IMG/VR virus record: IMGVR_UViG_2585427727_000015
Length of the DNA stretch: 40,634 nucleotides
Strand: one strand, 5' to 3'
Origin: a virus
Lineage: Duplodnaviria > Heunggongvirae > Uroviricota > Caudoviricetes
Shown here: piece after piece, positions 11,623 to 32,226 of the stretch
Layout of the letters: the number at the start of each line of letters is the position of its first letter
Position numbering within the stretch: the stretch's first letter is position 1
Position numbers and translations under genes: made by a program
The notes under the pieces: model-generated
Told to the model about the DNA's origin: nothing
Seen by the model: the letters and a program-made list of their open reading frames with translations, nothing else
The model's database searches: none

Positions 11623-11953
11623 ATCAGCAGCAGAGCGCAAAGCCGCTCAGAGAGCCAGACAAGCTGCATCTGGTGTGCGTAAGCTGGAAATTGTGCTTGA
11701 TGCTCAGGAAATTGAAATGCTGGAGCGTAACTGTGCCACGCGTCGCCCCGGGCGTGCGCCTTACGAATTTGGTGAGTATATAGCGTTACTGATCCGCCAG
11801 GATGATGCACGCGTGCGCGGGCGTATAAAATCGATCAGCAGAAAATGTTGCGGTAAGTGCGGCGAGAGAGTTCCAGTTAATTCATGCCCGTGTAATGGTG
11901 ACTCGCAATGCTGGGTGACTAAAGGCTGGCATGAAACGAAATTAATAGTGTGA
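11615..11953 (+). CDS. Cys-rich hypothetical protein (possible zinc-binding regulator), last gene before packaging module
   Basis: 112-aa ORF, C-terminal CCGKCGERVPVNSCPCNGDSQCW; stop codon lies inside palindrome GTGACATGTCAC. Confidence 0.5.
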   Translation: MAKSAAERKAAQRARQAASGVRKLEIVLDAQEIEMLERNCATRRPGRAPYEFGEYIALLIRQDDARVRGRIKSISRKCCGKCGERVPVNSCPCNGDSQCWVTKGWHETKLIV

Positions 11954-11961
11954 CATGTCAC
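11950..11961. repeat. 12-bp perfect palindrome GTGACATGTCAC (copy 1 of 2)
   Basis: Identical to 32190-32201; both overlap a stop codon and precede an intrinsic terminator. Confidence 0.8.
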
Positions 11962-12002
11962 GAGTAGATTATGCATGATGAATTTGATGGGTTTTGAATA
12001 CT

Positions 12003-12028
12003 GCCGCCAACTATGGCGGCTTTATTTT
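12003..12028 (+). terminator. Rho-independent terminator upstream of terS
   Basis: GCCGCC-AACTAT-GGCGGC followed by TTTATTTT. Confidence 0.7.
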
Positions 12029-12032
12029 GCAT

Positions 12033-12064
12033 GGTACTATTACCACAACGGTAACTATTACCAC
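12033..12064 (+). repeat. Tandem direct repeat GGTA(A)CTATTACCAC x2 immediately upstream of terS start
   Basis: ACTATTACCAC at 12036-12046 and 12054-12064; each copy contains GGTA...TACC half-sites in outward arrangement. Confidence 0.6.
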
Positions 12065-12071
12065 GGTGGTT

Positions 12072-12668
12072 ATGATGCCTGCTGAACCTAAAACCTATAA
12101 ACGCAAATCAACGCAATTTAAGCCACTAACAGCAATGCAGGAGGCTTATTGCCAGTCATACATCAAAACGCCTGAAAACCAGACTCAGGCAGCGATTAAC
12201 GCAGGATTCTCCCCAAATACAGCGGCAGTTAAAGCCAGTGTCATGATGCGCGATGAACGCATTCAAAAACGGATTGCCGAGTTGATGGAGGAGCGCAACA
12301 AACGAATGCGCGTCAGTGCTGATTACGTTCTCATGCGCCTGGTGGAGATCGACCAGATGGACGTGATCGACATCCTCAACGACGATGGGAGCCTTAAACC
12401 AATCCGTGAGTGGCCGAAAATCTGGCGCACTACGCTTAGTGGCTTTGATCTGTCATCGACCATCATGAACATGAACGAGGATTCGATAGAGACAATCCTC
12501 AAAAAAATTAAATGGCCTGACAAGGTGAAGAACCTTGAGCTGATTGGTAAGCATGTTGATGTCAACGCGTTCAAAGAACGTCTGGATGTTAATGTGAATG
12601 TGACAATTGCTGATCGCATAGCAGCAGCCAGGAAGCGACTCAAAGAACGTCAGGATGGTAATCAGTGA
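12072..12668 (+). CDS. terS: Terminase small subunit
   Basis: FKPLTAMQEAYCQSY...AAINAGFSPNTAAVKASVMMRDERIQKRIAE matches the N-terminal pattern of Terminase_2-type small subunits; ATG 12072 with GGTGG SD; directly precedes terL. Confidence 0.75.
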   Translation: MMPAEPKTYKRKSTQFKPLTAMQEAYCQSYIKTPENQTQAAINAGFSPNTAAVKASVMMRDERIQKRIAELMEERNKRMRVSADYVLMRLVEIDQMDVIDILNDDGSLKPIREWPKIWRTTLSGFDLSSTIMNMNEDSIETILKKIKWPDKVKNLELIGKHVDVNAFKERLDVNVNVTIADRIAAARKRLKERQDGNQ

Positions 12669-14140
12669 CAGATACAGCGTTATCTCCTGAAGAGCAGTTG
12701 ATCGAGGATATTGCAGGGTTCACTCACGATCCGCTTGGCTATGCCCTCTATGCGTTCCCGTGGGGGGAAGAGGGGACTGAACTGGCACATGCTACCGGCC
12801 CACGTCAGTGGCAGGCTGATGCGTTCCGAGAGATACGTGATCACCTGCAGAATCCAGAGACGCGCTATCAGCCGCTTATGTTGGCACGCGCTTCTGGTCA
12901 CGGTATTGGTAAATCCGCATTCATCTCAATGCTGATCAACTGGGGCATGTCCACTTGCGAGGATTGTAAGGTCGTGGTGACCGCCAACACCGACAACCAG
13001 CTACGAACGAAGACCTGGCCGGAAATTATCAAGTGGTCGAACCTTGCTATCACGAAAGACTGGTTTACCTGTACCGCTACCGCGATGTACAGCAATGACC
13101 CAGGGCACGACAAGCGGTGGCGGGCTGACGCAATACCCTGGTCTGAGCACAACACTGAGGCATTCGCCGGACTACACAACGAGCGCAAACGCATCATCGT
13201 GGTATTCGATGAAGCGTCGAACATTGCCGATCTGGTGTGGGAGGTAGCAGAGGGTGCGCTGACGGACGAAGACACCGAAATCATCTGGGTGGCGTTCGGG
13301 AACCCGACGCGTAACACCGGGCGTTTCCGTGAATGTTTCCGCAAGTACAAACACCGCTGGAAGTGTGCGCAGATTGACAGCCGGACGGTGGAAGGCACTA
13401 ACAAACAGCAGTTGCAGAAATGGGTTGATGACTACGGGGAAGACAGCGACTTCGTTAAAATCCGTGTGCGCGGCATATTCCCTGATGCATCTGAATTGCA
13501 GTTTATCCCTACCGGTCTTACTGACGAGGCAATGAAACGGGTGGTAACCGCTGCGCAGGTTGCACATGCTCCGGTGATAATCGGCGTTGACCCGGCGTAC
13601 TCCGGCGTTGATGACGCTGTGATATACCTGCGGCAGGGGCTGCACAGTAAGGTGCTATGGACTGGCAACAAGACCACTGACGATCTGATTATGGCGAAGC
13701 GTATCGCTGACTTTGAAGACCAGTACCAGGCTGACGCAGTGTTCATCGACTTCGGTTACGGAACTGGTCTGAAGTCAATCGGTGACGGCTGGGGTCGTAC
13801 ATGGCAACTTGTTCCGTTCGGTGGCGCGTCTACTGACCCGCAGATGCTCAATAAGCGCGGGGAGATGTTCAACTCATGCAAGACGTGGCTGAGGCTGGGC
13901 GGCATGCTTGATGACCAGGAAACAGCGGACGACCTGTCGGCGGCAGAGTACAAAGTTCGAGTGGACGGTAAAATCGTTATCGAACCGAAGGAAGATATCA
14001 AGGAGCGGCTTGGGCGTTCTCCTGGTAAAGGCGATGCGCTACTGCTGACGTTTGCTTTCCCGGTCTCGAAACGCATAAATATACCAGGACAGCAAAGCCA
14101 GCAGGGAAGGGCCATAACGGATTATGACCCATTTGAATGA
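12665..14140 (+). CDS. terL: Terminase large subunit (ATPase/nuclease)
   Basis: 491-aa ORF, GTG start overlapping terS stop; Walker A-like GHGIGKS and downstream nuclease-like region. Confidence 0.9.
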   Translation: MTDTALSPEEQLIEDIAGFTHDPLGYALYAFPWGEEGTELAHATGPRQWQADAFREIRDHLQNPETRYQPLMLARASGHGIGKSAFISMLINWGMSTCEDCKVVVTANTDNQLRTKTWPEIIKWSNLAITKDWFTCTATAMYSNDPGHDKRWRADAIPWSEHNTEAFAGLHNERKRIIVVFDEASNIADLVWEVAEGALTDEDTEIIWVAFGNPTRNTGRFRECFRKYKHRWKCAQIDSRTVEGTNKQQLQKWVDDYGEDSDFVKIRVRGIFPDASELQFIPTGLTDEAMKRVVTAAQVAHAPVIIGVDPAYSGVDDAVIYLRQGLHSKVLWTGNKTTDDLIMAKRIADFEDQYQADAVFIDFGYGTGLKSIGDGWGRTWQLVPFGGASTDPQMLNKRGEMFNSCKTWLRLGGMLDDQETADDLSAAEYKVRVDGKIVIEPKEDIKERLGRSPGKGDALLLTFAFPVSKRINIPGQQSQQGRAITDYDPFE

Positions 14141-14143
14141 TTT

Positions 14144-14545
14144 TTACTTTTGTGATTTTGATTTTCTTTGATTGGCGGGATTTAAACCGCCATTTATATT
14201 TGCTAGTGGATTATTCAATAATGTACTGATTTCTGGGTTGTTAATTTTAGCAATGCCTAAATTTTTTGCAGACTCGTTAATCATTTGTACTATCTTTGGA
14301 TCAGCAAGTCTATTTGCAATTGAGTTGTTTGTTGTCAAATGAATACTTTCTTTATAAGACTTATATTCGTCTTTTAATTGTTTGTGAGCTTTTTCTAGAT
14401 TTTCTAGTTTAGATGTTGTTTCATCAATAACCTTAGATAATTCTAAAATACGAGCTTGTGCTGCGCGCAGTTCTATCTCCCTCTCTTTCAATTCAGATGT
14501 GAGTTGTCCCATTCTGTCTTTTGAAAGAATTATTTCCTCTTTCAT
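14144..14545 (-). CDS. AT-rich moron ORF, coiled-coil protein (133 aa), possibly C-terminal part of a frameshifted longer protein
   Basis: Low-GC ORF with heptad-like charged repeats; 5' end overlaps upstream ORF across an A8/T8 tract (14556-14563). Confidence 0.5.
   Translation of the reverse strand: MKEEIILSKDRMGQLTSELKEREIELRAAQARILELSKVIDETTSKLENLEKAHKQLKDEYKSYKESIHLTTNNSIANRLADPKIVQMINESAKNLGIAKINNPEISTLLNNPLANINGGLNPANQRKSKSQK
14173..14201 (+). terminator. Plus-strand intrinsic terminator ending the terS-terL transcript (embedded in 3' end of minus-strand moron ORF)
   Basis: TGGCGG-GATTTAAA-CCGCCA followed by TTTATATTT. Confidence 0.5.
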
Positions 14546-14993
14546 ATCTTGAATGTTTTTTTTCAGCGCCTGTTTTTACTTTTTCGTAAGTAATGTCTTT
14601 TTTAGCCAGCAATCTCTGTAGCCGTGTTTCACGTTGTATTTTTCTTGCCTTCCGGTGATTTTCGATTGAGTCATTATTATCAAGAGGCTTTGCTTGCCAT
14701 ACGTTAATGATATTGTTTACCCATGGTAATAGGCAGCAGATAGTAATTACAGATAAGCATGGATAAAACATAACAGTTTTCCATGTACTGTTATCTGAGA
14801 TATATGAAATTTTATCTATTATATTTGATTTGCTAAAAAATAGATAAAGAAGTGATTTCCAGTTGAAGGCGCACCAGGACATAACAAAAGCACCAAGCAC
14901 AGGGTTTTTAGCTCGATGCACGGCAGTGTTGGCAGTAGATAAAAACAGCTCTTTGAACGATTCGAACATACTAATTACCTTAAAGTTTTTCAT
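14493..14993 (-). CDS. AT-rich moron ORF, predicted membrane protein (about 166 aa, two hydrophobic segments), possibly N-terminal part of a frameshifted longer protein
   Basis: ATG 14993 (MKNFKV...); hydrophobic stretches NPVLGAFVMSWCAFNWKSLLYLFF and TVMFYPCLSVITICCLLPWVNNII; operator-like ATACC-N5-GGTAA at 14998-15012 overlaps RBS. Confidence 0.5.
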   Translation of the reverse strand: MKNFKVISMFESFKELFLSTANTAVHRAKNPVLGAFVMSWCAFNWKSLLYLFFSKSNIIDKISYISDNSTWKTVMFYPCLSVITICCLLPWVNNIINVWQAKPLDNNDSIENHRKARKIQRETRLQRLLAKKDITYEKVKTGAEKKHSRYERGNNSFKRQNGTTHI

Positions 14994-15028
14994 GATTATA
15001 CCTTTAAGGTAATTTGTGGTCATCAGGC

Positions 15029-15054
15029 AAAAAAAATGCCCGGACGAACCGGGC
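15029..15054 (-). terminator. Rho-independent terminator downstream of tRNA-Arg
   Basis: Minus strand GCCCGG-TTCGT-CCGGGC followed by T8. Confidence 0.7.
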
Positions 15055-15218
15055 GAACTGGAAGCAATGAGTTCTGCCTTCCGTGGCTGTACGGGTTTAC
15101 AGCATGAAGTCATCGCAATGGCGTCCTGCTGTAAAAAAGGACGGTGATAGTCCTTCAAGGGAAACCATCACCGCCAAGCACCTGGAACTTCTGGCATCAC
15201 GGTCCTTAGGCGTGATTC

Positions 15219-15295
15219 TGGCGTGGCATGCAGGATTCGAACCTGCGACCAACCGCTTAGAAGGCGGTTGCTCTGTCCAACTGAGCTAATGCCAC
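15219..15295 (-). tRNA. tRNA-Arg (anticodon UCU, reads AGA), argU-like
   Basis: 77-nt cloverleaf: acceptor GTGGCAT/ATGCCAC, D-arm GCTC...GAGC, anticodon stem ACCGC/GCGGT with loop CTTCTAA, T-arm GCAGG-TTCGAAT-CCTGC, 3' GCCA. Confidence 0.9.
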
Positions 15296-15617
15296 AACGC
15301 TGAGAGCACTTAGCCTGTTAAGGCGCCACACTTTGTCGCGGCTCCATAAATGCTCTCATCGTTGTACCCTCGTCTCTTCCGAGGCGTCACACCGAATCGC
15401 CGGGATGGTGAATCCACGTGCGCGGAATAAAACCGCTCGACTTGCACATTCCGGCTACCTGGTTCGTTTGCCCGAGCAAGGGAGGGTGCCCCTTAAACGT
15501 ATCCAGACCGCTATCGGCGCATGTGCCATACGCCGTACTGCTCAAAATAAAAGCTCACTCCACCTGTTCAATTTAACGACAAGCCAGTCAGGTTAATAAC
15601 CGGAATGAACTCTCTGC

Positions 15618-15632
15618 TTACCTGAAAGGTAA
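15618..15632. promoter_or_regulatory. Operator-like palindrome TTACCTGAAAGGTAA upstream of head-gene operon
   Basis: Perfect copy; the 17-nt string TTACCTGAAAGGTAATA is identical at 34573; extended -10-like TGGTAATAAT lies about 60 bp downstream. Confidence 0.5.
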
Positions 15633-15722
15633 TAATTCGTGCGTTAAATGTCAACCATCTACGATAAATAAATCACATGTGGTTAAATTGGTAATAATTT
15701 AATTGCGTACGGAGTCATTGAT

Positions 15723-15929
15723 ATGTGCATGGGTAGCTCACCATCAGTGCCTGCAACACCAGAAGTTCAGGCAGCACCACAGGAGCAGGATGCCGCCGTT
15801 GTTGATGCCCGCGACGAAGAAACACGTCGCCGTCGCGCTGCTGCTGGTCGTAGTTCTACGCTGCTTACCGGTTCTCAGGGCGACACATCAACCGCTAATA
15901 CCAGCGGTAAAACGCTACTTGGTCAGTAA
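15723..15929 (+). CDS. Small hypothetical protein (68 aa) preceding portal
   Basis: ATG with GGAG SD; its translation-initiation region CGGAGTCATTGATATG is duplicated (15/16) at the portal start 15931-15946. Confidence 0.5.
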   Translation: MCMGSSPSVPATPEVQAAPQEQDAAVVDARDEETRRRRAAAGRSSTLLTGSQGDTSTANTSGKTLLGQ

Positions 15930-15943
15930 CCGGAGTCATTGAA

Positions 15944-16255
15944 ATGGCGGAAACAACTAAAGAGCGATTGAACAAACAGTTCGCACAACTTGAAAGCGAG
16001 CGTCAGTCGTTCGAGCCGCACTGGCGCGAGTTGAGTGATTACATCAACCCGCGTGGTTCCCGCTTTCTGACTTCTGAGGTCAACCGTAACGATCGACGCA
16101 ATACACGCATTATTGATTCGACCGGGACTATGGCGGCGCGCACTCTCGCCAGCGGCATGATGTCAGGCATCACAAGCCCCGCGCGTCCGTGGTTTCGCCT
16201 GGCTACGCCAGATCCTGAAATGATGGATTATGGCCCTGTTAAGTTGTGGCTTTAG
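15944..16255 (+). CDS. Portal (head-tail connector) protein, N-terminal segment ending at in-frame TAG 16253-16255
   Basis: Same reading frame as 16271-17623 with a single stop between; GTMAARTLASGMMSGITSPARPWFRLATPD resembles (from memory) the T7 gp8 N-terminal region. Confidence 0.6.
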   Translation: MAETTKERLNKQFAQLESERQSFEPHWRELSDYINPRGSRFLTSEVNRNDRRNTRIIDSTGTMAARTLASGMMSGITSPARPWFRLATPDPEMMDYGPVKLWL

Positions 16256-16270
16256 GCGGGGCAGAACCGC

Positions 16271-17623
16271 ATGAACGATATGTTCAATAAGTCGAATCTC
16301 TATCAGTCGCTGCCGCAGTTATACGGAAGCCTCGGCACATACAGCACTGGCGCAATGGCGGTGCTGGAGGATGACGAGGACATCATTCGTACAATGCCAT
16401 TCCCGATAGGAAGTTACTACCTGGCTAACTCACCTCGTGGCAGTGTGGACACCTGTTTTCGCAAGTTCTCTATGACTGTTCGTCAGCTTGTTCAGGAGTT
16501 CGGACTAAATAACGTCAGCGAATCCGTAAAAAGCATGTGGGAAAGCGGCACCTACGAGAAGTGGATTGAAGTGATGCATTCGGTTTACCCGAACATTGAC
16601 CGCGATACATCGAAGCTGGATAGCAAGAACAAGCCATTCAAATCGGTTTATTACGAGGTTGGTGGCGATAACGACAAGTTGTTGCGTGAGTCCGGATTCG
16701 ATGAGTTTCCAATTATGGCTCCGCGCTGGGAAGTTAACGGCGAAGATGTTTATGGATCATCATGCCCGGGTATGCTGGCGCTTGGACCTGTTAAGGCATT
16801 GCAGCTTCTCCAGAAGCGCAAGTCGCAGTTGATTGATAAAGCCACCAATCCGCCGATGGTTGCTCCGACTTCCCTCAAGAATCAGCGCGCCTCCCTTCTT
16901 CCTGGCGACATCACGTATATCGATCAGATTACTGGTCAGGATGGCTTCAGGCCTGCTTATCTGGTTAACCCCAGTACAGCAGATTTGGTGGCAGACATTC
17001 AGGACACTCGTCAAATCATTAACAGCGCCTACTTTGTCGATCTGTTCATGATGTTGCAGAACATCAATACCCGCTCGATGCCTGTTGAAGCGGTGATCGA
17101 AATGAAAGAAGAAAAACTTCTGATGTTGGGGCCGGTTCTGGAGCGTCTGAACGACGAATGTCTTAATCCTCTCATTGACCGCGCTTTCTCGATGATGGTG
17201 CGTAAAAACATGCTGCCGCCACCGCCTGACGCGATGGAAGGCATGCCCCTGAAGGTCGAATACATTTCCGTCATGGCTCAGGCGCAGAAGTCTATCGGCC
17301 TGTCCAGTCTGGCGTCCACGGTTAACTTCATTGGTCAACTTGCGCAAGCGAAACCAGAAGCTCTCGACAAACTCAACGTTGATCAGGCGATCGATGCATT
17401 CGCTGATATGTCCGGAGTGTCTCCAACCGTCATTGTTCCGCAGGAACAGGTTGAGCAGGCTCGCCAGCAACGGGCACAGCAGCAACAGCAGCAACAAATG
17501 ATGGCGATGGGGATGGCGGCGGCACAGGGTGCCAAGACGCTAAGCGAAGCTAAAACTTCGGATCCGAGTGTTTTGTCAGCTATGGCGAATGCAGTTAGTG
17601 GTCAGGGTGGGCAATCACAATGA
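16271..17623 (+). CDS. Portal (head-tail connector) protein, main body
   Basis: 450-aa ORF; Gln/Ala/Met-rich C-terminal tail (QQRAQQQQQQQMMAMGMAAAQGA) typical of T7-type portals; position between terminase and scaffold/capsid. Confidence 0.8.
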   Translation: MNDMFNKSNLYQSLPQLYGSLGTYSTGAMAVLEDDEDIIRTMPFPIGSYYLANSPRGSVDTCFRKFSMTVRQLVQEFGLNNVSESVKSMWESGTYEKWIEVMHSVYPNIDRDTSKLDSKNKPFKSVYYEVGGDNDKLLRESGFDEFPIMAPRWEVNGEDVYGSSCPGMLALGPVKALQLLQKRKSQLIDKATNPPMVAPTSLKNQRASLLPGDITYIDQITGQDGFRPAYLVNPSTADLVADIQDTRQIINSAYFVDLFMMLQNINTRSMPVEAVIEMKEEKLLMLGPVLERLNDECLNPLIDRAFSMMVRKNMLPPPPDAMEGMPLKVEYISVMAQAQKSIGLSSLASTVNFIGQLAQAKPEALDKLNVDQAIDAFADMSGVSPTVIVPQEQVEQARQQRAQQQQQQQMMAMGMAAAQGAKTLSEAKTSDPSVLSAMANAVSGQGGQSQ

Positions 17624-17916
17624 CAGATTACGAAGACGATCAACTGAAAGAAGAAAACGCCCGTAAGCAACGTGACATGGCGCAGCGTGAAATTGATGAC
17701 ATTCGCTTTGTCATGAGCAGTGAACAGGGGCGTCGCGTTGTCTGGTCGGTGCTGGAGAAAGGCCGTGTGTTTTCCGCTATCTCACCGATGGACGCTATGG
17801 CAATGGCATTTAATGAGGGGCAACGCAATCTGGCGCTGGAACTGTTTCAGCGCGTTATGGCGCATTGCCCTGAACAGTATTTGAAGATGGCCAAAGAGGC
17901 CAGTGAACAGGAGTGA
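17620..17916 (+). CDS. Hypothetical head-assembly protein (98 aa)
   Basis: ATG overlaps portal stop (ATGA); position in head module. Confidence 0.5.
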   Translation: MTDYEDDQLKEENARKQRDMAQREIDDIRFVMSSEQGRRVVWSVLEKGRVFSAISPMDAMAMAFNEGQRNLALELFQRVMAHCPEQYLKMAKEASEQE

Positions 17917-17918
17917 TC

Positions 17919-18614
17919 ATGAATTTATTTGAGCGTTTGCTGTATCGCCGTCTTTGCAATGAGCAACCAGTCGATGGTGGAGCAGCTCCGGCTGCGTCAG
18001 AACCGTCAGCGCCTGCAGGTGATAACCCTGCTCCAGTTGGTGATCCATCACAACAGGAAGGTGATAAGACACAACCTGTTGCTGATGGCGATAAACCTGC
18101 TGATGACAAAAAGCCTGAAAGCGATAAGCAGGGTGAAAAAAAGGACGGCGATAAACCGGAGGGTGCGCCGGAGAAGTACGAGTTTCAGGCTGCCGAAGGC
18201 GTAGAGCTGGATACAGAAGCGTTGAAGGAATTCGAGCCGGTGGCGCGAGAACTTAACCTGACCAACGAGCAAGCGCAAAAGCTGGTTGATGCTTATCCGA
18301 AGATTCTGGCAGGTGTTCAGCAGCGCCAGGCAGAAGCCTGGCAGAAAACAACCGAGCAGTGGGCTGCGGATGTAAAAGCTGACAAAGAAATCGGTGGCGA
18401 CAAGTTGATTTCTAACCTTAGCGCCGCACAGCGTGCGCTTGACCAGTTCGGGACACCTGAACTCAAAGAATATCTGAACACCACCGGACTGGGTAATCAC
18501 CCTGATCTGGTCAAAACGTTCGTGAAAATCGGAAAGGCGATGTCTGAAGATGGCATGGTCACCGGTGGTAATGAAGGCCAGCGTAGTGCGGCCGAAGTGC
18601 TCTATGGCAAATAA
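17919..18614 (+). CDS. Putative scaffolding protein (acidic, Pro/Asp/Lys-rich N-terminus)
   Basis: ACAGGAG SD then ATG 17919; composition and position directly upstream of major capsid gene. Confidence 0.55.
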   Translation: MNLFERLLYRRLCNEQPVDGGAAPAASEPSAPAGDNPAPVGDPSQQEGDKTQPVADGDKPADDKKPESDKQGEKKDGDKPEGAPEKYEFQAAEGVELDTEALKEFEPVARELNLTNEQAQKLVDAYPKILAGVQQRQAEAWQKTTEQWAADVKADKEIGGDKLISNLSAAQRALDQFGTPELKEYLNTTGLGNHPDLVKTFVKIGKAMSEDGMVTGGNEGQRSAAEVLYGK

Positions 18615-18622
18615 GAGAGGAA

Positions 18623-19615: not shown

Positions 19616-19631
19616 CGCCTGTTATTAACCT

Positions 19632-19651: not shown

Positions 19652-19666
19652 TAATGGAGAAAGAAG

Positions 19667-23900: not shown

Positions 23901-24364
23901 TGATCGATGTTCAAATTATTCCCGCAACCGAAGAGCATCTTCAGATGATTTTGCCGGATGTTCGTCAGGCTGATATTGACGAACTGTATGCGGTATCACT
24001 GATGACTACCGAAGATGCGCTGCGTGTTGGTCTGCGTACTGCGACTATGGCCTGGTCAGGATTTGCGAACGGAGAACTGGTAACCATGTTTGGCGTATCT
24101 CCGGCGTCAATGATCGGTGGCAATGGTACGCCCTGGCTGGTCGGAACCAGCCGTATCGAAAAATATCAGAAGACATTTCTTCGCCACTGCCGCCCTGTAT
24201 TGCAGCAGATGCTGGCAGTTTATCCGCGCCTGGAAAACTATGTCGACGAGCGAAACCATGTTGCCAAAGCATGGCTGCACTGGCTTGGATTCAGGCTTGA
24301 AGAAGCCGCGCCTTATGGTGCTCTTGGTCTTAATTTCCACAGATTTCACATGGAGAGAAAATAA
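23900..24364 (+). CDS. Putative internal virion protein (154 aa)
   Basis: ATGA overlap with nozzle gene; position in ejection-protein cluster. Confidence 0.45.
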   Translation: MIDVQIIPATEEHLQMILPDVRQADIDELYAVSLMTTEDALRVGLRTATMAWSGFANGELVTMFGVSPASMIGGNGTPWLVGTSRIEKYQKTFLRHCRPVLQQMLAVYPRLENYVDERNHVAKAWLHWLGFRLEEAAPYGALGLNFHRFHMERK

Positions 24365-24909: not shown

Positions 24910-27422
24910 TGCCAGTCGTACCAACAGTATCCGGCCGTCAGGTTCAGAGCCGTGGAGTTCAGTCAGCAGGCTTGCAGACGTTTTCTCAGCCAGGTATTGG
25001 TGATGCTTTTGTTCGGGCAGGGACAGAGGCAATTGATGTTTTTGGTCAGGCAAAACAGCGTGCCAATATCGCTCTGGCTCAGGAGGCATCTCTTAACCTC
25101 AGTCAGATAAGCAGTGATCTGCTGAATAATCCTGAAACAGGATTGCTTAACCTGAAAGGGAAAAATGCTATTGGAAAAGGTCAGGAGTATACGCAGCAGT
25201 TTGATGCTCAGGTCGAACAACTGGCTATGTCGCTGCCGGATGAACAGGCTCGTAATGCTTTCATGCAGCAGGCGCAGCAGCAGCGCATTCAGTTCACTAC
25301 GCAGGCAGGGCGGCACGAGATAGGGCAAATAAATGCCTACGAAGAAGGCCAGTTTCAGGCTACGCTGCTGAACAATGGTAAAAATGCCGCAGCATTGTAT
25401 GGCGACAACGCCGCATACGTATTGGCTAATAAGCAAACTTTCCAGCAAATTGAGGATTACGGCATTGCACATGGCTGGAGTGACGAGCAAATCCAGGCCA
25501 AGAAAATCGAGTTTAAAGAGAAGGTTGCTGATGCTGCATTGTCCCAGTGGTCGGCAAACAATGCGACCGCATTCATCCAAAGTAATGGCGAGTTAAGTGA
25601 TACTGCTGCTGGAGCTCGCCGTGCTGTAGCAGATAGTGACTCTTCCGAGCGTGCCCGTGGCATACGCAACAATAACCCAGGAAATCTCGAATACAGCAAA
25701 ACTAATCCGTGGGTAGGCCAGACCGGTGATGATGGTCGATTTGCTAAATTCGAAACACCTGAACACGGGATTCGTGCATTAGGGCGGAACCTGATGTCGT
25801 ATCAGAGGCAGGGTATTGATACCGTCAGCGAGATAATTAATCGCTGGGCACCGCCTACTGATAAAAATGACACTATGTCGTATATCAAAGCAGTGTGCGA
25901 ACAACTTGGCGTTTCTGCTGATGAGCCTCTCGATGCATCTAATCCTGATACCCTGAAGGCGCTTTGTGCAGCCATTATCCATCATGAGAACGGTAGCCAG
26001 CCATACAGTGATCAGCAGTTAACTGCTGGTGTCAGTGCAGCACTTGGTTTATCAACAATTCCAACCAACACCAAACGCTATACCGGTAATGCAGCATTCG
26101 ATGCGGCATCTCCTGAGGCGCAGGCAAGTTTTATGCGACAGGCGGATCAACTGCGTCGGCAGCAGCAGGCTGAATATAAAACGATGATTGACAGCCAGGT
26201 TCGCGATGCGACAGCTGCGTATATGCGTGGCGTTGAATTTCCTAACCCACCTGGTGAGGCTGATTTTATTGCAGCTTATGGAGTAAGAGAAGGAAACCTG
26301 CGATATACCGAGTTCAGAAATACGCAAATCGCCGGACAGTATATAGGCTCTTTCCGCAACATGCCGACAAGCAGCATTACAGCATATGTTGAGCAATTAC
26401 GCCCGGATACTGGTGAGACAGGGGAGGGTTATGCGGCACGAGCCGCTCTTTATGACAACGTTGTGTCGGCTGCAAGTCAGGTGATAAAGCAGCGACAGGC
26501 TGATCCTGTACAGTTCTCTCTTGCCGCCGGACAGGCAAAGCCTATCGACATGAGCAATAAGGATAACTTTGGACAGAGCGTTGCCTTGCGTGCTGCTCAG
26601 GTCAGTGACCTTGCTAAGTCATATGGCACTCCACTGACGTTCTTTTCCAAAGACGAGGCCAATCAGATCGGTGTTTTCTTTCGTGATGCGCCCGTTTCCC
26701 AACAGGCAGCATATCTCGATACCATCAGGCAGAGCACTGGTGGTGGGCAGGTGTATATGTCAGCACTACAGCAGATCAGTGCCAACGCTCCATCTGCTGC
26801 CGTTGCCGGGATACTGATGGATAAGCCAGGTGGTATTTTGGCAGAAAAAAACTGGTTTAATCCGGATGTTTCCGTGTCTCCTGAAACCGCTGCGCAGACA
26901 ATTCTTGCTGGCGCGGCGGCTCGTAAAGGTACTGATGACGCGAAAGGTATTCCGATGCCTAAAGATGCCGATCTCCGCCTTGAGTTTTCTGACATGGTGA
27001 AGGATGCATTTGCTGGTGATGCTCAGGGGGCATCAATGGCATACGAGATCGCAAAGGACTATTACGCTGGTGTGATGGCGAAAAAAGGCGTGGTATCAGG
27101 CGAAATTGACAATGATATCTGGAAACAGGCTGTTAACGTAGCTACAGGTGGCGTGCATGACTATAACGGAATGGGGAATGTTCTTTTGCCGTGGGGAATG
27201 TCTGCAGAGCAATTCGATAAGCAGGTTAATCAGGCTTGGAATGAACAAGTTGTTGGCACAGGGATAAAAACACCGCCTGGTCAGTATGGTTTGCAAAGTT
27301 ACGGCGATAGTCAGTACCTGGTGAAACTTGGTACTGGTTATCTGCTAAAAGATGATGGTTCTCCCGTTGTTCTTGATCTGACACAGAAGCGTCAGAGATT
27401 CTCCGGAGATATTCCGCAATGA
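24909..27422 (+). CDS. Internal virion/ejection protein (837 aa) with conserved NNNPGNL...W..RFAKF...GIRA motif (possible cell-wall-acting domain)
   Basis: ATG 24909 overlaps upstream TAA (TAATG); large Gln/Ala-rich protein in ejection-protein cluster. Confidence 0.55.
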   Translation: MPVVPTVSGRQVQSRGVQSAGLQTFSQPGIGDAFVRAGTEAIDVFGQAKQRANIALAQEASLNLSQISSDLLNNPETGLLNLKGKNAIGKGQEYTQQFDAQVEQLAMSLPDEQARNAFMQQAQQQRIQFTTQAGRHEIGQINAYEEGQFQATLLNNGKNAAALYGDNAAYVLANKQTFQQIEDYGIAHGWSDEQIQAKKIEFKEKVADAALSQWSANNATAFIQSNGELSDTAAGARRAVADSDSSERARGIRNNNPGNLEYSKTNPWVGQTGDDGRFAKFETPEHGIRALGRNLMSYQRQGIDTVSEIINRWAPPTDKNDTMSYIKAVCEQLGVSADEPLDASNPDTLKALCAAIIHHENGSQPYSDQQLTAGVSAALGLSTIPTNTKRYTGNAAFDAASPEAQASFMRQADQLRRQQQAEYKTMIDSQVRDATAAYMRGVEFPNPPGEADFIAAYGVREGNLRYTEFRNTQIAGQYIGSFRNMPTSSITAYVEQLRPDTGETGEGYAARAALYDNVVSAASQVIKQRQADPVQFSLAAGQAKPIDMSNKDNFGQSVALRAAQVSDLAKSYGTPLTFFSKDEANQIGVFFRDAPVSQQAAYLDTIRQSTGGGQVYMSALQQISANAPSAAVAGILMDKPGGILAEKNWFNPDVSVSPETAAQTILAGAAARKGTDDAKGIPMPKDADLRLEFSDMVKDAFAGDAQGASMAYEIAKDYYAGVMAKKGVVSGEIDNDIWKQAVNVATGGVHDYNGMGNVLLPWGMSAEQFDKQVNQAWNEQVVGTGIKTPPGQYGLQSYGDSQYLVKLGTGYLLKDDGSPVVLDLTQKRQRFSGDIPQ

Positions 27423-29221
27423 GTTACTTTGGCCTTAATCCAGTAAACCAGAATCAGCAGCTTGACGAAGCAGCATCAAATCCAGCTGGCTTTAACAGCG
27501 ATGTTGGTTTTTTCGACAATGCTGTAGGAGCGGCATTGTCTGGTTTGTACTCCGGGCTGGTGGCAAAGCCAGATCAGTTGCTCTGGGCAGGGATGGATAA
27601 AATCGTATCCCCGATTGCTCAGTTTGTTAACGAAAACACCTCGCTCAATGACACTTCAGTTTCATACATTGCCGAGCAGAGAAAACTAGCAGAGCAGCAG
27701 GTTAAGCGGCTGACGCCTGATGCCGCGACAACCGGAACCGCCGGGCAGGTTCTTTATGGGTTGTTCGATATGGGCGGGCAGGCTGTTATCGGTACAACGC
27801 TCGGTGGTCCGGTCGGAGGTGCTGCGGCGGTAACTTCGCTACAGGGTTTTTCTGAGTTTGAACGGCTGACAGCACAGGGTGTTGATTTCAGGACGGCGCA
27901 GGAAGCGGGATTAGTGCAGGGTATTACTGCTGGTGCCGGAACACTGATCCCTATGAGCCTCGGGTTACGTGCTGGTGGTGCGCTGGCGGAAGGTGTGGCG
28001 GCTCAGCTTGCGCGGACGGGTGAAAGTTCAGTGCGACGCGCCGCAGCAACAGCAGTACGTGCAACGCCAGATATTGCCTATGCCGCAGGTACAAATATTG
28101 CGTTCGGTATGGCACAGCGTGGGCTTACTGCAAAAACGCTTCGTGATGGTGGCTATAGCGAAATGGCTAACCAGTATGATGTGTTGGATCGACAGGCAAT
28201 TGCTATTGATGCTGTTCTTGGGGTGGCGTTTGGTGGTGTCGGCAGATTTATTAACTCTCGCGGCGAGTCTACAAGCGCACCAAATTTTTCACCAGTTGAT
28301 GTCGATGCTGCACTGGCGGCGAATGCCGCTCATCATGCTGAAATTGATATTGCTCCCGGCGTCCCGATCAACGTGCTTTCGCGCAATTCTCACATTCAGG
28401 CTCTGCGAAAAGCCATGTCTGATGTTAGCCAGGGGAGACCTGTAGACGTTGCCAGCATTGTTGAGTCTGCATCTTTCAGTGAAATTCCTGGGCGCAAGAG
28501 TCTGCTGTCTCAGGCAGTTAATGAGGCTCTGTCATCTGTAGATGATGGAGTAACGGCGCGCGCTATAGAAAATCGGTTGCTTGAAGAACAGGCCGCGCAG
28601 CTTTTGCCGCGTGGCGATAGACAGGTTTACCAGTCTGAAATCGCTAATAGCCAACGAATTATTGAAAATCTCACTGAACAGCGCGCACAAATTCTTGCAG
28701 AAGAGCCAACCGGTAGCGGTAAGGCTTTATCTCGTGCTCGATCAGATAAACAGGCCAGACTTCGCGATATTGATCAACGAATCCGGCAGGCACAAGAACG
28801 CCTGGAATTTTCCCGTAACGCGTTGGCACCGCACGAGCCTGGAGGTCAGTTTTTTGAAGCTCGAGCAGAACTGGCTCGGAGACAGCAGGCAGAAAGTGAA
28901 CTTAATGCTCAGGCTGTTTCATTCTATAAAACAGCAGAGGTCAGGACGCCAGACGAAGTAGCTCCTTTTGAGCCTGATAAAATATTGCAACAGGCAGAAC
29001 AAAAAATGATGGCGGATCAGGCAGGAGATATTGATCTGCGCATAGCTGAAGACTCGCTGCTTGAATCACCTGACATGATAATCACCGTGCTGGATGATGA
29101 TGGTAATCCACAATCGCGCAGCGCGCGTGAAGTACTGGATGAAGCGAACAGGGAAAGTGAGCAGGCAATACAGGATTCCAGCCTGTTTGATGTCGCTGTG
29201 GCGTGTTTCTTGAGAGGTTAA
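27419..29221 (+). CDS. Internal virion/ejection protein (600 aa)
   Basis: ATGA overlap with upstream gene; Gly/Ala-rich N-terminus, coiled-coil C-terminus. Confidence 0.55.
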   Translation: MSYFGLNPVNQNQQLDEAASNPAGFNSDVGFFDNAVGAALSGLYSGLVAKPDQLLWAGMDKIVSPIAQFVNENTSLNDTSVSYIAEQRKLAEQQVKRLTPDAATTGTAGQVLYGLFDMGGQAVIGTTLGGPVGGAAAVTSLQGFSEFERLTAQGVDFRTAQEAGLVQGITAGAGTLIPMSLGLRAGGALAEGVAAQLARTGESSVRRAAATAVRATPDIAYAAGTNIAFGMAQRGLTAKTLRDGGYSEMANQYDVLDRQAIAIDAVLGVAFGGVGRFINSRGESTSAPNFSPVDVDAALAANAAHHAEIDIAPGVPINVLSRNSHIQALRKAMSDVSQGRPVDVASIVESASFSEIPGRKSLLSQAVNEALSSVDDGVTARAIENRLLEEQAAQLLPRGDRQVYQSEIANSQRIIENLTEQRAQILAEEPTGSGKALSRARSDKQARLRDIDQRIRQAQERLEFSRNALAPHEPGGQFFEARAELARRQQAESELNAQAVSFYKTAEVRTPDEVAPFEPDKILQQAEQKMMADQAGDIDLRIAEDSLLESPDMIITVLDDDGNPQSRSAREVLDEANRESEQAIQDSSLFDVAVACFLRG

Positions 29222-29226
29222 ATTAA

Positions 29227-31701
29227 ATGAGACAGGAATGTATACAAGCGGTCCAGCAGGCGGCGCAGCGCACATTAACGGCGCGAGAAATACAGAACAT
29301 TGAAGACCGCATTTATCGAAATATGCGCTCCATTGCTCGTGATGACCCGATGTCGTGGAGACAACTTTCCGAATCAGAGCGGCTATATCGTGCAGCACAA
29401 TTGGCATCTGAAGAATTACAGCTAGAAGCGGCATTAAAGAAACGTCGTGTGGCCCTCACTATAGCCGCACGTCAGAGATTGGATAAATTTATCAATAGCT
29501 ATCAAGGGGCTGATGGGAAACTTGGCGCTCTTAACCGTACTATTGCTTTTAATGCAGACGGTAAATCGAATTTCCTCTCTGTTGAATCCAGAACAAAAGC
29601 CACTCGTGATTATGCATTGAGTCAATTGCAGGAGGCATTTGAAGCAGTTGATCCTCGCTTTTTTGGCCTGTTTGAAGATGAAGCTGGCGTGCGTGACCTG
29701 GTATATGAAATGCGAGGGCAAAATACTGGCAATGCTAAAGCAAGAAAAGGTGCTAAGGCGTGGAGAGAAGTGACAGAGCTACTGCGCCGCCGGTTTAATG
29801 ATGCTGGTGGGGACATTGGCTATCTCGAAAACTGGGGGATCCCTCAACATCATTCTATGGAAAAGGTTGGGGCGGTATCAAAGGATAAGTGGGTTAGCGA
29901 TGTTATAGGTAAGCTGGATCGCAAATATTATATCCGAGCCGATGGACAACTGATGAACGATGCCGAGTTGTCTTCATTTCTTGGAGAGGCTTATAACACG
30001 ATCGCTACTGGTGGGCTGAATAAGCTTACTGATACCGGAATGCGAATTTCCGGCGCACGTGCTAACCGTGGTAATGCATCACGACAGATACATTTCAAAG
30101 ATGCAGATTCCTATCTGCAATATCAACAACTTTATGGCGATCGCTCTCTATGGGAAATCATGGTCGGTCACCTGGAAGGTATCAGTAAAGATATTGCACT
30201 GGTGGAAACATATGGCCCAAACCCCGATCATGTTTTCCGCTCTCTTCTTGATCAGGTGAAGGCAGAAACGGCAACAGCTAACCCGAGTAAAACCGGTAAA
30301 GTCGAGCGGCTGGCGAACAACACAGAGAATCTGTACAACTTTATTTCCGGAAAGACACAGCCTGTAGCGAATCCGCACATCGCGCGATGGTCTGACAATA
30401 TCCGCAACTGGCTGGTTGCCAGCAGACTCGGATCCGCGTTGCTATCATCGTTCTCTGATCTTGGAACCATGTATCTGTCTGCGAAGGTGACCAACCTTCC
30501 AATGAACCAGTTATTCCGCAACCAGCTTGAAGCTATGGACCCAACGAACCGTACAGAACTTGCGCGGGCGCGCCGCGCTGGTCTGGCAATGGAATCTCTA
30601 CTTGGCAGCGTTAACCGCTGGGCGATGGATAATATGGGGCCGTCAGTGTCTCGTTGGGCAGCAACGGCGGTAATGCGTGCCAGTGGGCTTACAGCATGGT
30701 CAGATGCGCACAAGCGCGCCTATGGCGTAACCATGATGGGAAGCCTGGGAGAAGTAGTGTCACGGACACCAGACCTTCGTAGCCTCGATGACTCTGATTT
30801 TCGTATCCTGAAAAGCAAAGGGATTACTGACACAGACTGGAGCGTATGGAAGCTGGCGCAACAGGAGGACTGGGGGAACGGTAATAATACGATGCTGACA
30901 CCGGAAAGCATTATGCGTATCCCTGATTCAGCAGTTAAACATCTTGGTGAGCCTGAACGCGTGAAATTTGAGGCAATGCGTAAACTGCTCGGTGCCGTAA
31001 CTGAAGAAGTTGATATGGCTGTTATTACACCGGGAGCACGTGAGCAACTGATAACCGGTTCTGGTATTCAGCGTGGAACATGGAAAGGTGAATTAACGAG
31101 AAGTGTTTTCCTGTTTAAATCGTTCCCTATCTCGGTGGTTATGCGTCACTGGTCACGCGCTATGGGTATGCCGTCTGCTGGTGGGCGTGCGGCATATATT
31201 GCGACGTTTATTGCCAGTACGACCATTCTTGGCGCTTTGTCGCAGCAACTTAACGACCTTGCGTCTGGTCGTAATCCTCGCGAGATGACAGGAGAAGATG
31301 CTGCTAAATTTTGGCTTGGTGCTCTACTGAAAGGTGGTGGTCTTGGCCTTTACGGTGACTTTTTATTGTCAGATCACACTAGGTACGGAAGCGGCGCGCT
31401 GGCGTCGATGCTTGGCCCGGTAGCTGTCCTGGTTGATGACGTAGTGAAGATAGCTCAGGGCATACCATTAAATGCTGTGGAAGGGAAGAACGAGCAGACT
31501 GGTGGTGATCTGGTGAAACTTGGGAAAGGGCTGATGCCAGGTGCGAATCTCTGGTACTTGAAGGCAGCTCTTGATCACATGATCTTTAACCAGATGCAGG
31601 AGTATTTTTCACCAGGCTATTTGCGTAAAATGGAGCAACGTTCGAAGAAAGAGTTTAACCAGACATACTGGTGGCGACCTCAGGATGTCACTCCGCAATA
31701 A
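29227..31701 (+). CDS. Internal virion/ejection protein (824 aa)
   Basis: Large ORF directly following; position analogous to T7 gp15/gp16-type core proteins. Confidence 0.55.
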   Translation: MRQECIQAVQQAAQRTLTAREIQNIEDRIYRNMRSIARDDPMSWRQLSESERLYRAAQLASEELQLEAALKKRRVALTIAARQRLDKFINSYQGADGKLGALNRTIAFNADGKSNFLSVESRTKATRDYALSQLQEAFEAVDPRFFGLFEDEAGVRDLVYEMRGQNTGNAKARKGAKAWREVTELLRRRFNDAGGDIGYLENWGIPQHHSMEKVGAVSKDKWVSDVIGKLDRKYYIRADGQLMNDAELSSFLGEAYNTIATGGLNKLTDTGMRISGARANRGNASRQIHFKDADSYLQYQQLYGDRSLWEIMVGHLEGISKDIALVETYGPNPDHVFRSLLDQVKAETATANPSKTGKVERLANNTENLYNFISGKTQPVANPHIARWSDNIRNWLVASRLGSALLSSFSDLGTMYLSAKVTNLPMNQLFRNQLEAMDPTNRTELARARRAGLAMESLLGSVNRWAMDNMGPSVSRWAATAVMRASGLTAWSDAHKRAYGVTMMGSLGEVVSRTPDLRSLDDSDFRILKSKGITDTDWSVWKLAQQEDWGNGNNTMLTPESIMRIPDSAVKHLGEPERVKFEAMRKLLGAVTEEVDMAVITPGAREQLITGSGIQRGTWKGELTRSVFLFKSFPISVVMRHWSRAMGMPSAGGRAAYIATFIASTTILGALSQQLNDLASGRNPREMTGEDAAKFWLGALLKGGGLGLYGDFLLSDHTRYGSGALASMLGPVAVLVDDVVKIAQGIPLNAVEGKNEQTGGDLVKLGKGLMPGANLWYLKAALDHMIFNQMQEYFSPGYLRKMEQRSKKEFNQTYWWRPQDVTPQ

Positions 31702-31710
31702 GGAAGTGTT

Positions 31711-31884
31711 GTGTTTTTAATTATTTTGAGTGTGATAATTTCTGGTGGGCTGTTATTTATTGACCGCTACAAATATTTTCTTAACCCTCAGACTCAAGCT
31801 ATTTGCTGGTTCATCTTTGTTGTGCAGGGAGTAGTTCTTGTTGCAAGCCTTATTGAGGGGAGGCCTCTGATTTTTACTGGGTAA
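31711..31884 (+). CDS. Small hydrophobic protein (57 aa, GTG start), tentative
   Basis: AGGAAG SD 4 nt before GTG 31711; predicted single/double TM; below ORF-track threshold. Confidence 0.3.
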   Translation: MFLIILSVIISGGLLFIDRYKYFLNPQTQAICWFIFVVQGVVLVASLIEGRPLIFTG

Positions 31885-31896
31885 ATAGGTGACTAC

Positions 31897-32193
31897 ATGC
31901 AAGCTATAGGATTCATTGTTTATATCGTCGTTGGTCTTTTTCAGTTGGCAGCAATTATGGCTGGGCTTGAATCATGGTGGGGATTGCACTGGATAATTGC
32001 AGCCCCCATTGCTTTCATCGTGAGCTATATTCCATTTGTTGGAGCGATTGTTGGTATGGTTGGCGCTGTGGATGTATGGCGGTGGGAGTGGTGGCAGGCT
32101 GGCCTTCTCTTCTTTGGTGGGATCATCTTTGCTATTGTCTGCGGTGGAATGTCATCATTTTTCGAATGGCTATCATTCAGAAAAAGAGCGTGA
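31897..32193 (+). CDS. Integral membrane protein (98 aa, 3-4 predicted TM segments)
   Basis: AGGTGA SD; Trp-rich hydrophobic sequence; stop codon inside palindrome GTGACATGTCAC. Confidence 0.55.
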   Translation: MQAIGFIVYIVVGLFQLAAIMAGLESWWGLHWIIAAPIAFIVSYIPFVGAIVGMVGAVDVWRWEWWQAGLLFFGGIIFAIVCGGMSSFFEWLSFRKRA

Positions 32194-32201
32194 CATGTCA
32201 C
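32190..32201. repeat. 12-bp perfect palindrome GTGACATGTCAC (copy 2 of 2)
   Basis: Identical to 11950-11961. Confidence 0.8.
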
Positions 32202-32226
32202 AGGCCGCTTTCGCGGCCTTGTTTTT
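32202..32226 (+). terminator. Rho-independent terminator ending the ejection-protein operon
   Basis: AGGCCGC-TTTC-GCGGCCT followed by TGTTTTT. Confidence 0.7.

What the first reader, a model, noticed from the sequence alone, without database searches (positions are those of the whole stretch)
11950..32226. Two copies of the 12-bp palindrome GTGACATGTCAC, each overlapping a stop codon and followed by an intrinsic terminator
The identical perfect palindrome occurs at 11950-11961 (stop of the Cys-rich protein, about 40 bp before the terS terminator) and at 32190-32201 (stop of the membrane protein, directly before the terminator at 32202-32226). A repeated 12-mer alone is not unlikely by chance, but a palindrome in the same structural context twice, at the ends of the early/middle block and of the ejection operon, suggests a regulatory site (for example a late-regulator or antiterminator target) or a module-junction sequence used in mosaic recombination.
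Basis: seen in the sequence. Interest (0 to 1): 0.45.

Follow-up and report, generated by a model that had tools for sequence, protein, structure and literature searches.

The report
Conserved phage palindrome beside small regulator gene
The repeated 12-base palindrome is real and strictly conserved in epsilon15/phiV10-like phages, and it travels across unrelated phage groups with the small zinc-containing protein whose stop codon it overlaps, so it is most likely that protein's undescribed DNA binding site.

Summary
GTGACATGTCAC occurs exactly twice (11950-11961, 32190-32201). Each copy overlaps a TGA stop and precedes an intrinsic terminator. The window is a Uetakevirus (epsilon15/phiV10-like).

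In nine of the ten Uetakevirus genomes compared the 12-mer is unchanged while its flanks differ; phiV10 and phiv142-3 each carry one single-base variant. It sits at up to three homologous places:
- A, on the stop codon of the gp49/gp55-family gene, upstream of terS.
- B, beside the terminator after terL (absent in this window).
- C, beside the terminator after the last virion gene.

The motif generalises to YGTGAC-NN-GTCACR. It accompanies homologues of the 112-aa protein encoded at 11615-11953 in N15/phiKO2, P2-like prophages of Yersinia, enterobacteria and Aeromonas, and vibriophages. In five lineages it again overlaps that gene's TGA. The protein model looks like a ribbon-helix-helix domain plus a Cys knuckle.

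Best reading: the palindrome is the operator of this uncharacterised protein. An effect on transcription at operon ends is inferred, not shown. Terminator adjacency is specific to Uetakeviruses. Sites B and C can be lost. Some phages carry the 12-mer without the protein. The arms match host matS with a spacer one base shorter. I found no description of the 12-mer in the searchable literature.

The parts
11950..11961 (.). Palindrome copy A, GTGACATGTCAC. The 14-bp form tGTGACATGTCACg spans 11949-11962. It overlaps the TGA stop (11951-11953) of the upstream gene.
   Evidence: Conserved at this position in all Uetakeviruses checked and in 79 of 80 close relatives.
11615..11953 (+). Gene for the 112-aa gp49/gp55-family protein (PHROG 536). 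It has a basic N-terminal helix, a ribbon-helix-helix-like core and a C-terminal Cys knuckle. It is the proposed binder of the palindrome.
12003..12028 (+). Intrinsic terminator A: hairpin 12003-12020 plus a T tract. It lies between the early-right operon and terS.
   Evidence: Conserved in epsilon15, Tyrion and SPN1S.
12032..12073 (+). Putative packaging-operon promoter region: a conserved extended -10 (TGgTACTAT, 12032-12040) overlapped by two repressor-operator-like sites (12039-12055, 12057-12073). terS probably starts at ATG 12075.
   Evidence: epsilon15 record annotation of repressor sites. TL-2011b terS annotation.
32190..32201 (.). Palindrome copy C, GTGACATGTCAC, overlapping the TGA stop (32191-32193) of ORF 31897-32193.
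   Evidence: The homologous site is present in phiV10, PAS61, TL-2011b, phiv142-3, epsilon15, Tyrion, SPN1S and BUCT711.
31897..32193 (+). Variable 98-aa protein gene (PHROG 3075, function unknown) that ends in palindrome C. Relatives carry different genes here.
32202..32226 (+). Intrinsic terminator C: hairpin 32202-32219 plus a T tract, abutting the palindrome.
   Evidence: Retained in EC.W1-9 without the palindrome.
32225..32458 (-). Convergent minus-strand gene (PHROG 3117/14503, membrane-associated protein). Its 3' end meets terminator C, so site C lies between convergent genes.
17672..17683 (.). Degenerate copy GTGACATGGCGC (2 mismatches), inside a coding region. Relatives have GTGACATGGCAC. 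Its status is uncertain.
   Evidence: The same 1-mismatch variant lies 33 bp from a perfect site in the P2-like locus L131.

Best explanation
The palindrome is the cognate DNA binding site (operator) of the small protein encoded immediately upstream of copy A (window 11615-11953; epsilon15 gp49, phiV10 gp55, N15 gp46; PHROG 536). The protein is predicted to dimerise through a ribbon-helix-helix-like core. Each half would read one GTGAC arm plus the flanking pyrimidine, and the central two bases are free. The ancestral arrangement puts one site on the gene's own TGA stop, so gene and site are inherited as one unit. Uetakeviruses have added up to two further sites at the ends of transcription units, next to terminators. 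Shown: conservation of the sequence, co-occurrence of gene and motif, and the anatomy of the site. Inferred: physical binding, and that the bound protein changes how much transcription leaves one operon and enters the next, that is read-through at the early/packaging boundary and at convergent junctions. The sign of that effect is unknown.
For: (1) In nine of ten Uetakeviruses from Escherichia, Salmonella, Enterobacter and Klebsiella the 12-mer is unchanged at homologous sites A, B and C, while the flanks are unalignable at B and C; the exceptions are single-base variants, one arm change at site A in phiV10 and one centre change at site B in phiv142-3. It is present in 79 of 80 further relatives.
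(2) GTGAC-NN-GTCAC overlaps the TGA stop of the homologous gene in five lineages whose proteins are 32-45% identical to the window protein: a Yersinia P2-like phage (GTGACGCGTCAC), N15 and phiKO2 (GTGACTGGTCAC), Vibrio phage 10N.237 (GTGACAGGTCAC) and an Aeromonas P2-like locus (GTGACCGGTCAC).
(3) Enrichment near the gene: 34 motifs in 37 P2-like loci against 0.65 expected; 10 in 28 Aeromonas loci against 0.46; 7 in the three genomes N15, K308 and YenM_56.17 against 0.11. No other palindromic arm of the same composition is enriched in all four groups. Only the 2-bp spacer is used in Uetakeviruses (25 copies, against 0 for spacers 0, 1, 3 and 4). Lambda and Sf6 have none.
(4) The arms are fixed and the centre varies by lineage. 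A pyrimidine sits at -1 in 151 of 160 half-sites. This is the pattern of direct read-out by a symmetric dimer.
(6) IMG/VR stretches that hold TGTGACATGTCACA contain a family gene in 32 of 120 cases, often ending at the motif.
(7) EC.W1-9 has a frameshifted copy of the gene and has lost sites B and C.
Confidence: 0.55

Rival explanations
1. RNA-level element. The transcribed sequence GUGACNNGUCAC forms a small hairpin or protein-binding site in the 3' UTR or at gene junctions. It would control translation of the next gene or the stability or termination of the mRNA. The zinc-knuckle protein would act as an RNA binder, as phage Mu Com does.
For: The motif often lies directly between a stop codon and the next ribosome binding site or start codon: N15 gp46/gp47, K308 terS, and the 70-aa insert in Uetakeviruses. 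In Uetakeviruses it would be the last sequence before the terminator hairpin in three transcripts. Every site is transcribed in at least one direction.
Against: The hairpin is marginal (-2.9 kcal/mol, z -0.18). A 2-nt centre allows only a 4-bp stem. The arms are invariant rather than covarying across lineages with 30-40% identical proteins. Exact two-fold symmetry and the Y/R flank symmetry are expected for double-stranded DNA, not RNA. No Rfam family matches.
Confidence: 0.12
2. A site for a different binder: a host protein shared by Enterobacterales, Vibrio and Aeromonas (for example a MatP-like or other nucleoid protein) or another phage protein. The gp55-family gene would only be a frequent neighbour.
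For: The arms are identical to matS, GTGAC[AG]N[TC]GTCAC (consensus quoted in PMC3603311). All named hosts of the family belong to enterobacteria, vibrios and aeromonads. LMessi and ST16-OXA48phi5.3 carry the 12-mer without the family gene. Twenty-five of 120 stretches from the 14-mer scan hold two or more copies, most without the gene in the stored stretch.
Against: The spacer is 2, not 3, in every Uetakevirus site, so the matS definition is not met. The repeated overlap with this one gene's stop codon in five lineages would be unexplained. The LMessi copies lie inside coding regions (peptides VTCH and CDMSH) and may be coding by-products. Stored stretches are only pieces of contigs, so the gene may lie outside them.
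Confidence: 0.12
3. A passive module-boundary ('linker') sequence. It would be a short island of identity kept because it serves as micro-homology for recombination between mosaic phages, with no binding protein.
For: Homology between relatives starts or stops at the edges of the palindrome. Different genes abut it at sites B and C. An insertion lies exactly after site A. Boundary sequences are an annotated feature class in lambdoid phages such as Sf6.
Against: Twelve bases is very short for homologous recombination. The same arms recur in phage groups that share no flanking DNA at all: P2-like phages, N15 and vibriophages. The centre varies while the arms do not. Linker sequences are not expected to be perfect dyads or to track one protein family.
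Confidence: 0.08
4. A by-product of a stop/start gene junction or of coding. GTG-TGA-C-ATG-TCA-C encodes Val-stop followed by Met-Ser, a translational coupling arrangement that recurs by descent.
For: ST16-OXA48phi5.3 uses it exactly as a cro stop plus next-gene start. Short reading frames start at the central ATG at site A.
Against: The mini-ORFs after site A differ in length and sequence (3-7 codons) and are not conserved. Site B is not at a stop/start junction. Centre variants (GC, TG, CG, AC) remove the ATG but keep the arms.
Confidence: 0.04

Closest known systems
Ribbon-helix-helix repressor/operator pairs of phages and plasmids (P22 Arc and Mnt, CopG, ParD/TacA antitoxins, omega)
   Same: A small dimeric protein with a predicted beta-strand plus two helices, a short dyad-symmetric DNA site, and a gene placed next to its site (family knowledge).
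   Different: There is an extra C-terminal Cys knuckle. The sites lie on the gene's own stop codon and at operon ends rather than at promoters, and they are dispersed 2-20 kb apart. No significant sequence match to any RHH Pfam family.
MatP/matS of the E. coli Ter macrodomain
   Different: The spacer is 2 bp, not 3. The profile comparison with MatP shows no homology (probability 0.6%). There is no four-helix bundle or coiled coil. matS motifs are reported to be avoided in prophages (PMC3603311).
Lambda Q / qut late antitermination
   Same: The gene is the last one of the early-right operon, directly before terS. It is a small zinc-type protein. A DNA site follows the gene and is itself followed by a strong terminator before the late genes. 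GTGACA can read as a -35-like hexamer.
   Different: No match to the Q families. A -10 partner is not conserved and is lost in 23 relatives with the insert. A separate conserved promoter follows the terminator. Sites B and C have no promoter. N15 has its own Q-type late activator. The P2-like prophage locus L101, which carries a family gene, also encodes an Ogr-like protein.
DksA/TraR C4 zinc-finger proteins
   Same: The family profile aligns with F-plasmid TraR over a helix plus CxxCGxxxP...G..C (hmmsearch E 0.04; hhalign probability 68%).
   Different: The fourth Cys of the C4 pattern is not in register. The Pfam zf-dskA_traR model does not hit any of 53 members. The helix that would enter the RNA polymerase channel is here part of the RHH-like core.
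Boundary (linker) sequences of mosaic lambdoid phages
   Same: A short conserved sequence at junctions between non-homologous modules. This feature class is annotated in Sf6.
   Different: It is a perfect dyad, it is shared by phage groups with no common flanks, and it is tied to one protein family.

Membership tests
Intrinsic (rho-independent) terminator next to each copy | A G+C-rich hairpin followed by a T tract on the transcribed strand | tested here: met
   12003-12020 plus TTTATTTT, and 32202-32219 plus TGTTTTT. Folds confirmed.
Ribbon-helix-helix DNA-binding proteins | An N-terminal beta-strand followed by two helices, forming an intertwined dimer | tested here: inconclusive
Ribbon-helix-helix DNA-binding proteins | A significant match to a curated RHH family model | tested here: not met
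   Only sub-threshold hits: RHH_5 E 0.013 in 2 of 53 members, and YbfE-type NF008671 E 0.05.
matS (MatP binding site) | The 13-bp motif GTGAC-RNY-GTCAC | tested here: not met
   Both window copies and all 25 Uetakevirus copies have a 2-bp spacer. Consensus taken from PMC3603311.
MatP protein family | Sequence homology to MatP | tested here: not met
   hhalign probability 0.6%.
Lambdoid Q antiterminators | A match to the Q protein families | tested here: not met
   No Pfam, NCBIfam or PHROG hit to Q families.
Lambdoid Q antiterminators | The binding element lies within a constitutive late promoter that is followed by a terminator | tested here: inconclusive
   GTGACA-N18-CATGAT scores 9 of 12 at site A. 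It is not conserved in relatives with the 70-aa insert and is absent at sites B and C.
DksA/TraR zinc-finger family | The C4 motif CxxC-x17-CxxC and a match to zf-dskA_traR | tested here: not met
   The alignment shows CxxC...C...C with a different second half. There is no Pfam hit. Only weak profile similarity is seen.
Operator of the adjacent protein (protein/site pair) | Phyletic co-occurrence of gene and site | tested here: met
   The link is not exclusive.
Operator of the adjacent protein (protein/site pair) | Physical, sequence-specific binding | not testable with these tools
   This needs a gel-shift or footprint assay, ChIP, or a protein-DNA co-fold.
Mosaic boundary sequence | A conserved short sequence flanked by non-homologous modules in related phages | tested here: met
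Anti-phage defence proteins (PADLOC) | A match to a defence-system model | tested here: not met
   No hit at E up to 1.

The most novel reading that the evidence does not exclude
The gp55-family protein could be a new kind of site-loaded transcription factor for elongating RNA polymerase. Its RHH part would dock on YGTGAC-NN-GTCACR at the end of a transcription unit. Its TraR/DksA-like zinc module would engage the polymerase as it passes. Each palindrome would then make the neighbouring terminator conditional. That would be a late switch analogous to lambda Q but mechanistically distinct, with a binding site that mimics host matS with one base removed.
Probability: 0.1. Interest if true: 0.8.

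Novelty: new variant of a known kind. Interest (0 to 1): 0.55.

Why it matters
It gives a concrete, testable DNA target to a protein family (PHROG 536; epsilon15 gp49, phiV10 gp55, N15 gp46) that is labelled 'transcriptional regulator' or 'hypothetical' in the database records examined here. No experimental study of it was found, though the literature was never searched by protein name. The family occurs in Uetakeviruses, N15-like plasmid-prophages, P2-like prophages and vibriophages. The placement of the site is unusual for an operator: on the regulator's own stop codon and at operon ends. That points to control of transcription flow between modules, or of DNA organisation, rather than classical promoter repression. 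The near-identity to matS raises a testable question about cross-talk with host chromosome organisers. The motif also marks where these mosaic genomes exchange modules, and where insertions are tolerated in phages such as phiV10.

Tried and rejected
- Chance: rejected by conservation across relatives, although the within-window statistic alone is only about 1.7%.
- Cohesive end or pac site: the phiV10 record ends inside the palindrome, but only because that record was cut at the last stop codon. No P2-type cos match lies near the motif in P2-like loci. The N15 copies are far from cos.
- Repressor operator: the epsilon15-type operator is a different sequence, ATTACC-N5-GGTAAT.
- General terminator module: there is no terminator near the motif outside Uetakeviruses, and terminators persist without it.
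- Stable RNA structure or a known RNA family: the hairpin is weak and Rfam gives no hit at these sites.
- MatP homology: rejected.
- Q, Ogr or defence-system membership: no hits.
- Foldseek against PDB and BFVD: uninformative. The afdb50 library was unavailable.
- Literature: there is no occurrence of the 12-mer in the searchable library. The epsilon15 genome paper could not be retrieved.
- A mechanical test of ORF coverage at the sites was too noisy to use.
- BLAST of two multi-copy IMG/VR stretches against the phage collection gave nothing useful.
Full report
**1. Observation.**
GTGACATGTCAC occurs exactly twice in the window, at 11950-11961 and 32190-32201, and in none of 100 shuffles. Allowing 2 mismatches adds only 17672.

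The first copy overlaps the TGA of ORF 11615-11953. A hairpin at 12003-12020 plus a T tract follows 41 nt later. The second copy overlaps the TGA of ORF 31897-32193 and directly abuts the hairpin 32202-32219 plus T tract.

On its own the repeat is only moderately unlikely. The window has nine perfect 12-bp palindromes, and 5 of 300 Markov simulations contained a repeated one.

**2. What the window is.**
Megablast and the annotated relatives place the window in the genus Uetakevirus, the epsilon15/phiV10-like temperate podoviruses. The integrase gene is at 1-1251. The early-right operon ends at 11953. terS and terL span about 12075-14140. The virion genes run to about 32193. A minus-strand accessory block follows, then the tailspike and lysis genes.

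The epsilon15-type repressor operator ATTACC-N5-GGTAAT occurs 14 times against 1.05 expected, including two copies just before terS. A conserved extended -10, TGnTACTAT, follows terminator A.

**3. Conservation in Uetakeviruses.**
I compared phiV10, PAS61, TL-2011b, phiv142-3, EC.W1-9, epsilon15, Tyrion, SPN1S and BUCT711. The 12-mer sits at up to three homologous places:
- Site A is on the stop codon of the gp49/gp55 gene.
- Site B is 3-4 nt from the bidirectional terminator after terL.
- Site C is 0-10 nt before the terminator after the last virion gene.

The 12 bases are invariant apart from one arm change in phiV10 site A and one centre change in phiv142-3 site B. The flanks at B and C belong to at least five unrelated sequences.

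Of 80 further close relatives from IMG/VR, 79 have site A and 49 also have site B within 10 kb. This window, TL-2011b and EC.W1-9 lack B, and EC.W1-9 also lacks C. Their terminators remain, so B and C are dispensable. In 23 relatives a 70-aa gene is inserted exactly between palindrome A and terminator A.

**4. Link to the upstream gene.**
The 112-aa product belongs to PHROG 536. The family is small: 726 clusters at 90% identity and 152 representatives at 50%. Homologues occur in N15/phiKO2, in P2-like phages of Yersinia, enterobacteria and Aeromonas, and in many vibriophages.

In these unrelated genomes the generalised motif GTGAC-NN-GTCAC reappears:
- It overlaps the homologue's TGA in Yersinia YenM_56.17, N15, phiKO2, Vibrio 10N.237 and an Aeromonas locus.
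- It lies within a few kb in 34 of 37 enterobacterial P2-like loci, against 0.65 expected.
- It occurs 10 times in 28 Aeromonas loci, against 0.46 expected.
- N15 has three copies and Vibrio K308 has three.

The centre differs by lineage (AT, GC, TG, CG, AC, AG) while the arms never change. The base before each arm is a pyrimidine in 151 of 160 half-sites, so the site is effectively 14 bp. Controls agree: no other arm of the same composition is enriched in all groups, only the 2-bp spacer is used in Uetakeviruses, and lambda and Sf6 have no copy.

**5. The protein.**
An alignment of 53 members shows three features: a conserved basic N-terminus, a hydrophobic-polar strand-like segment followed by two helices, and CxxC...C...GDxxC(W).

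Curated libraries give no significant family. The profile weakly matches TraR and YbiI, which are DksA/TraR-type zinc-finger proteins. It does not match MatP.

**6. Interpretation.**
An invariant dyad with a free centre and symmetric flanks, inherited together with a predicted dimeric DNA-binding protein across phage groups that share no other DNA, is best explained as that protein's operator.

What the complex does is inferred only. In Uetakeviruses all three sites lie on the 5' side of a terminator with respect to the strand that carries the T tract. The sites mark the ends of the early-right operon, of the moron next to terL, and of the virion operon. This suggests control of transcription leaving one unit for the next.

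That coupling is lineage-specific. Nineteen of 25 Uetakevirus sites have a terminator within 45 nt, against 6% of random positions. In other lineages the figure is 0 of 51. There the motif more often lies just upstream of the next gene's start.

**7. Caveats and rivals.**
It returned 63 distinct contexts. Thirty-two of 120 stored stretches contain the family gene, and 25 hold two or more motifs. Three cautions follow:
- The complete phage LMessi has two copies, both inside coding regions, and no family member.
- ST16-OXA48phi5.3 has one copy at a cro stop/next-gene start junction and no family member.
- The motif is therefore not exclusive to the family. A different binder, or coding coincidence followed by descent, remains possible for those cases.

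An RNA role is disfavoured by the weak hairpin and the invariant arms. A purely recombinational 'linker' role fits the breakpoints, but it does not explain the recurrence in unrelated phage groups.

The arms equal those of matS, whose consensus is quoted in PMC3603311, but with one base fewer in the spacer. The named hosts of the family are enterobacteria, vibrios and aeromonads. Whether that resemblance is meaningful is open.

**8. Novelty.**
The 12-mer does not occur in the searchable literature. It is not among the many regulatory features annotated in the epsilon15 record. The epsilon15 genome paper could not be read, so prior mention there cannot be excluded.

I rate it a new variant of a known kind: a protein/operator pair with unusual placement and a matS-like sequence.

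Noticed in passing
window 4965, 5027, 5739, 6124, 8046, 8108, 12039, 12057, 14997, 15617, 24891, 33176, 34191, 34572: There are fourteen copies of the epsilon15-type repressor operator ATTACC-N5-GGTAAT (up to 2 mismatches; 1.05 expected). They lie not only in the immunity region but also before terS, the head genes and the tailspike gene. The prophage repressor therefore seems to act directly on the late operons.
   Followed up: partly
window 11994-12077: The phiV10-style terS start (TTG 11994) would place terminator A, a conserved extended -10 (TGgTACTAT, 12032-12040) and two operators inside the gene. ATG 12075, as annotated in TL-2011b and epsilon15, is the more likely start.
   Followed up: partly
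window 33970-34155 (-) and 15222-15295 (-): Rfam finds a C4 antisense RNA (33970-34054) and an isrK Hfq-binding RNA (34079-34155) upstream of the 218-aa minus-strand ORF 33264-33920 (phiv142-3 annotates an anti-repressor at the corresponding map position; homology not checked). It also finds a tRNA in the variable region after terL.
   Followed up: no
window 14141-14545: The palindrome copy that follows the terL terminator in phiV10, epsilon15, SPN1S, Tyrion and PAS61 (site B) is missing here. The flank is a different module with a reverse ORF (PHROG 4780).
   Followed up: partly
L054 10336-10570 (and 22 other IMG/VR relatives): A 70-aa ORF (MPKIRYDLEDMRDN...) is inserted exactly between palindrome A and terminator A. 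Its ribosome binding site starts 2 nt after the palindrome.
   Followed up: partly
L005 (EC.W1-9) 5945-6290, 8420-8540, 25680-25760: The gp55 homologue is frameshifted before its Cys knuckle. This phage lacks palindromes B and C while keeping terminator C. This could be co-loss or a sequencing error.
   Followed up: partly
L284 (LMessi) 3472 and 7323; L283 (ST16-OXA48phi5.3) 7537: These phages carry exact copies of the 12-mer but have no detectable family member. The LMessi copies lie in the Q-like gene (peptide VTCH) and in the gene after cro (peptide CDMSH). In ST16-OXA48phi5.3 the copy forms the cro stop and the next gene's start (TGAcATG).
   Followed up: partly
L091 (Vibrio K308) 19491; L094, L096, L101, L113, L120 about 700 nt upstream of the family gene: These loci carry 13-bp copies that fit the matS consensus (GTGACACCGTCAC). 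They occur in genomes that also carry the 12-bp form, although matS is reported to be avoided in prophages.
   Followed up: no
L092 (BUCT711), reverse strand, just downstream of site A: In this Klebsiella Uetakevirus, site A is followed by a LexA-box-like CTGT-N8-ACAG and a umuD-like gene instead of the terminator/terS arrangement.
   Followed up: no
L131 10850-10894: In enterobacterial P2-like prophages the perfect site is preceded at 33 bp by GTGACATGGCAC. This is the same 1-mismatch variant found inside a coding region of Uetakeviruses (window 17672 region). It may be a weaker second site.
   Followed up: no
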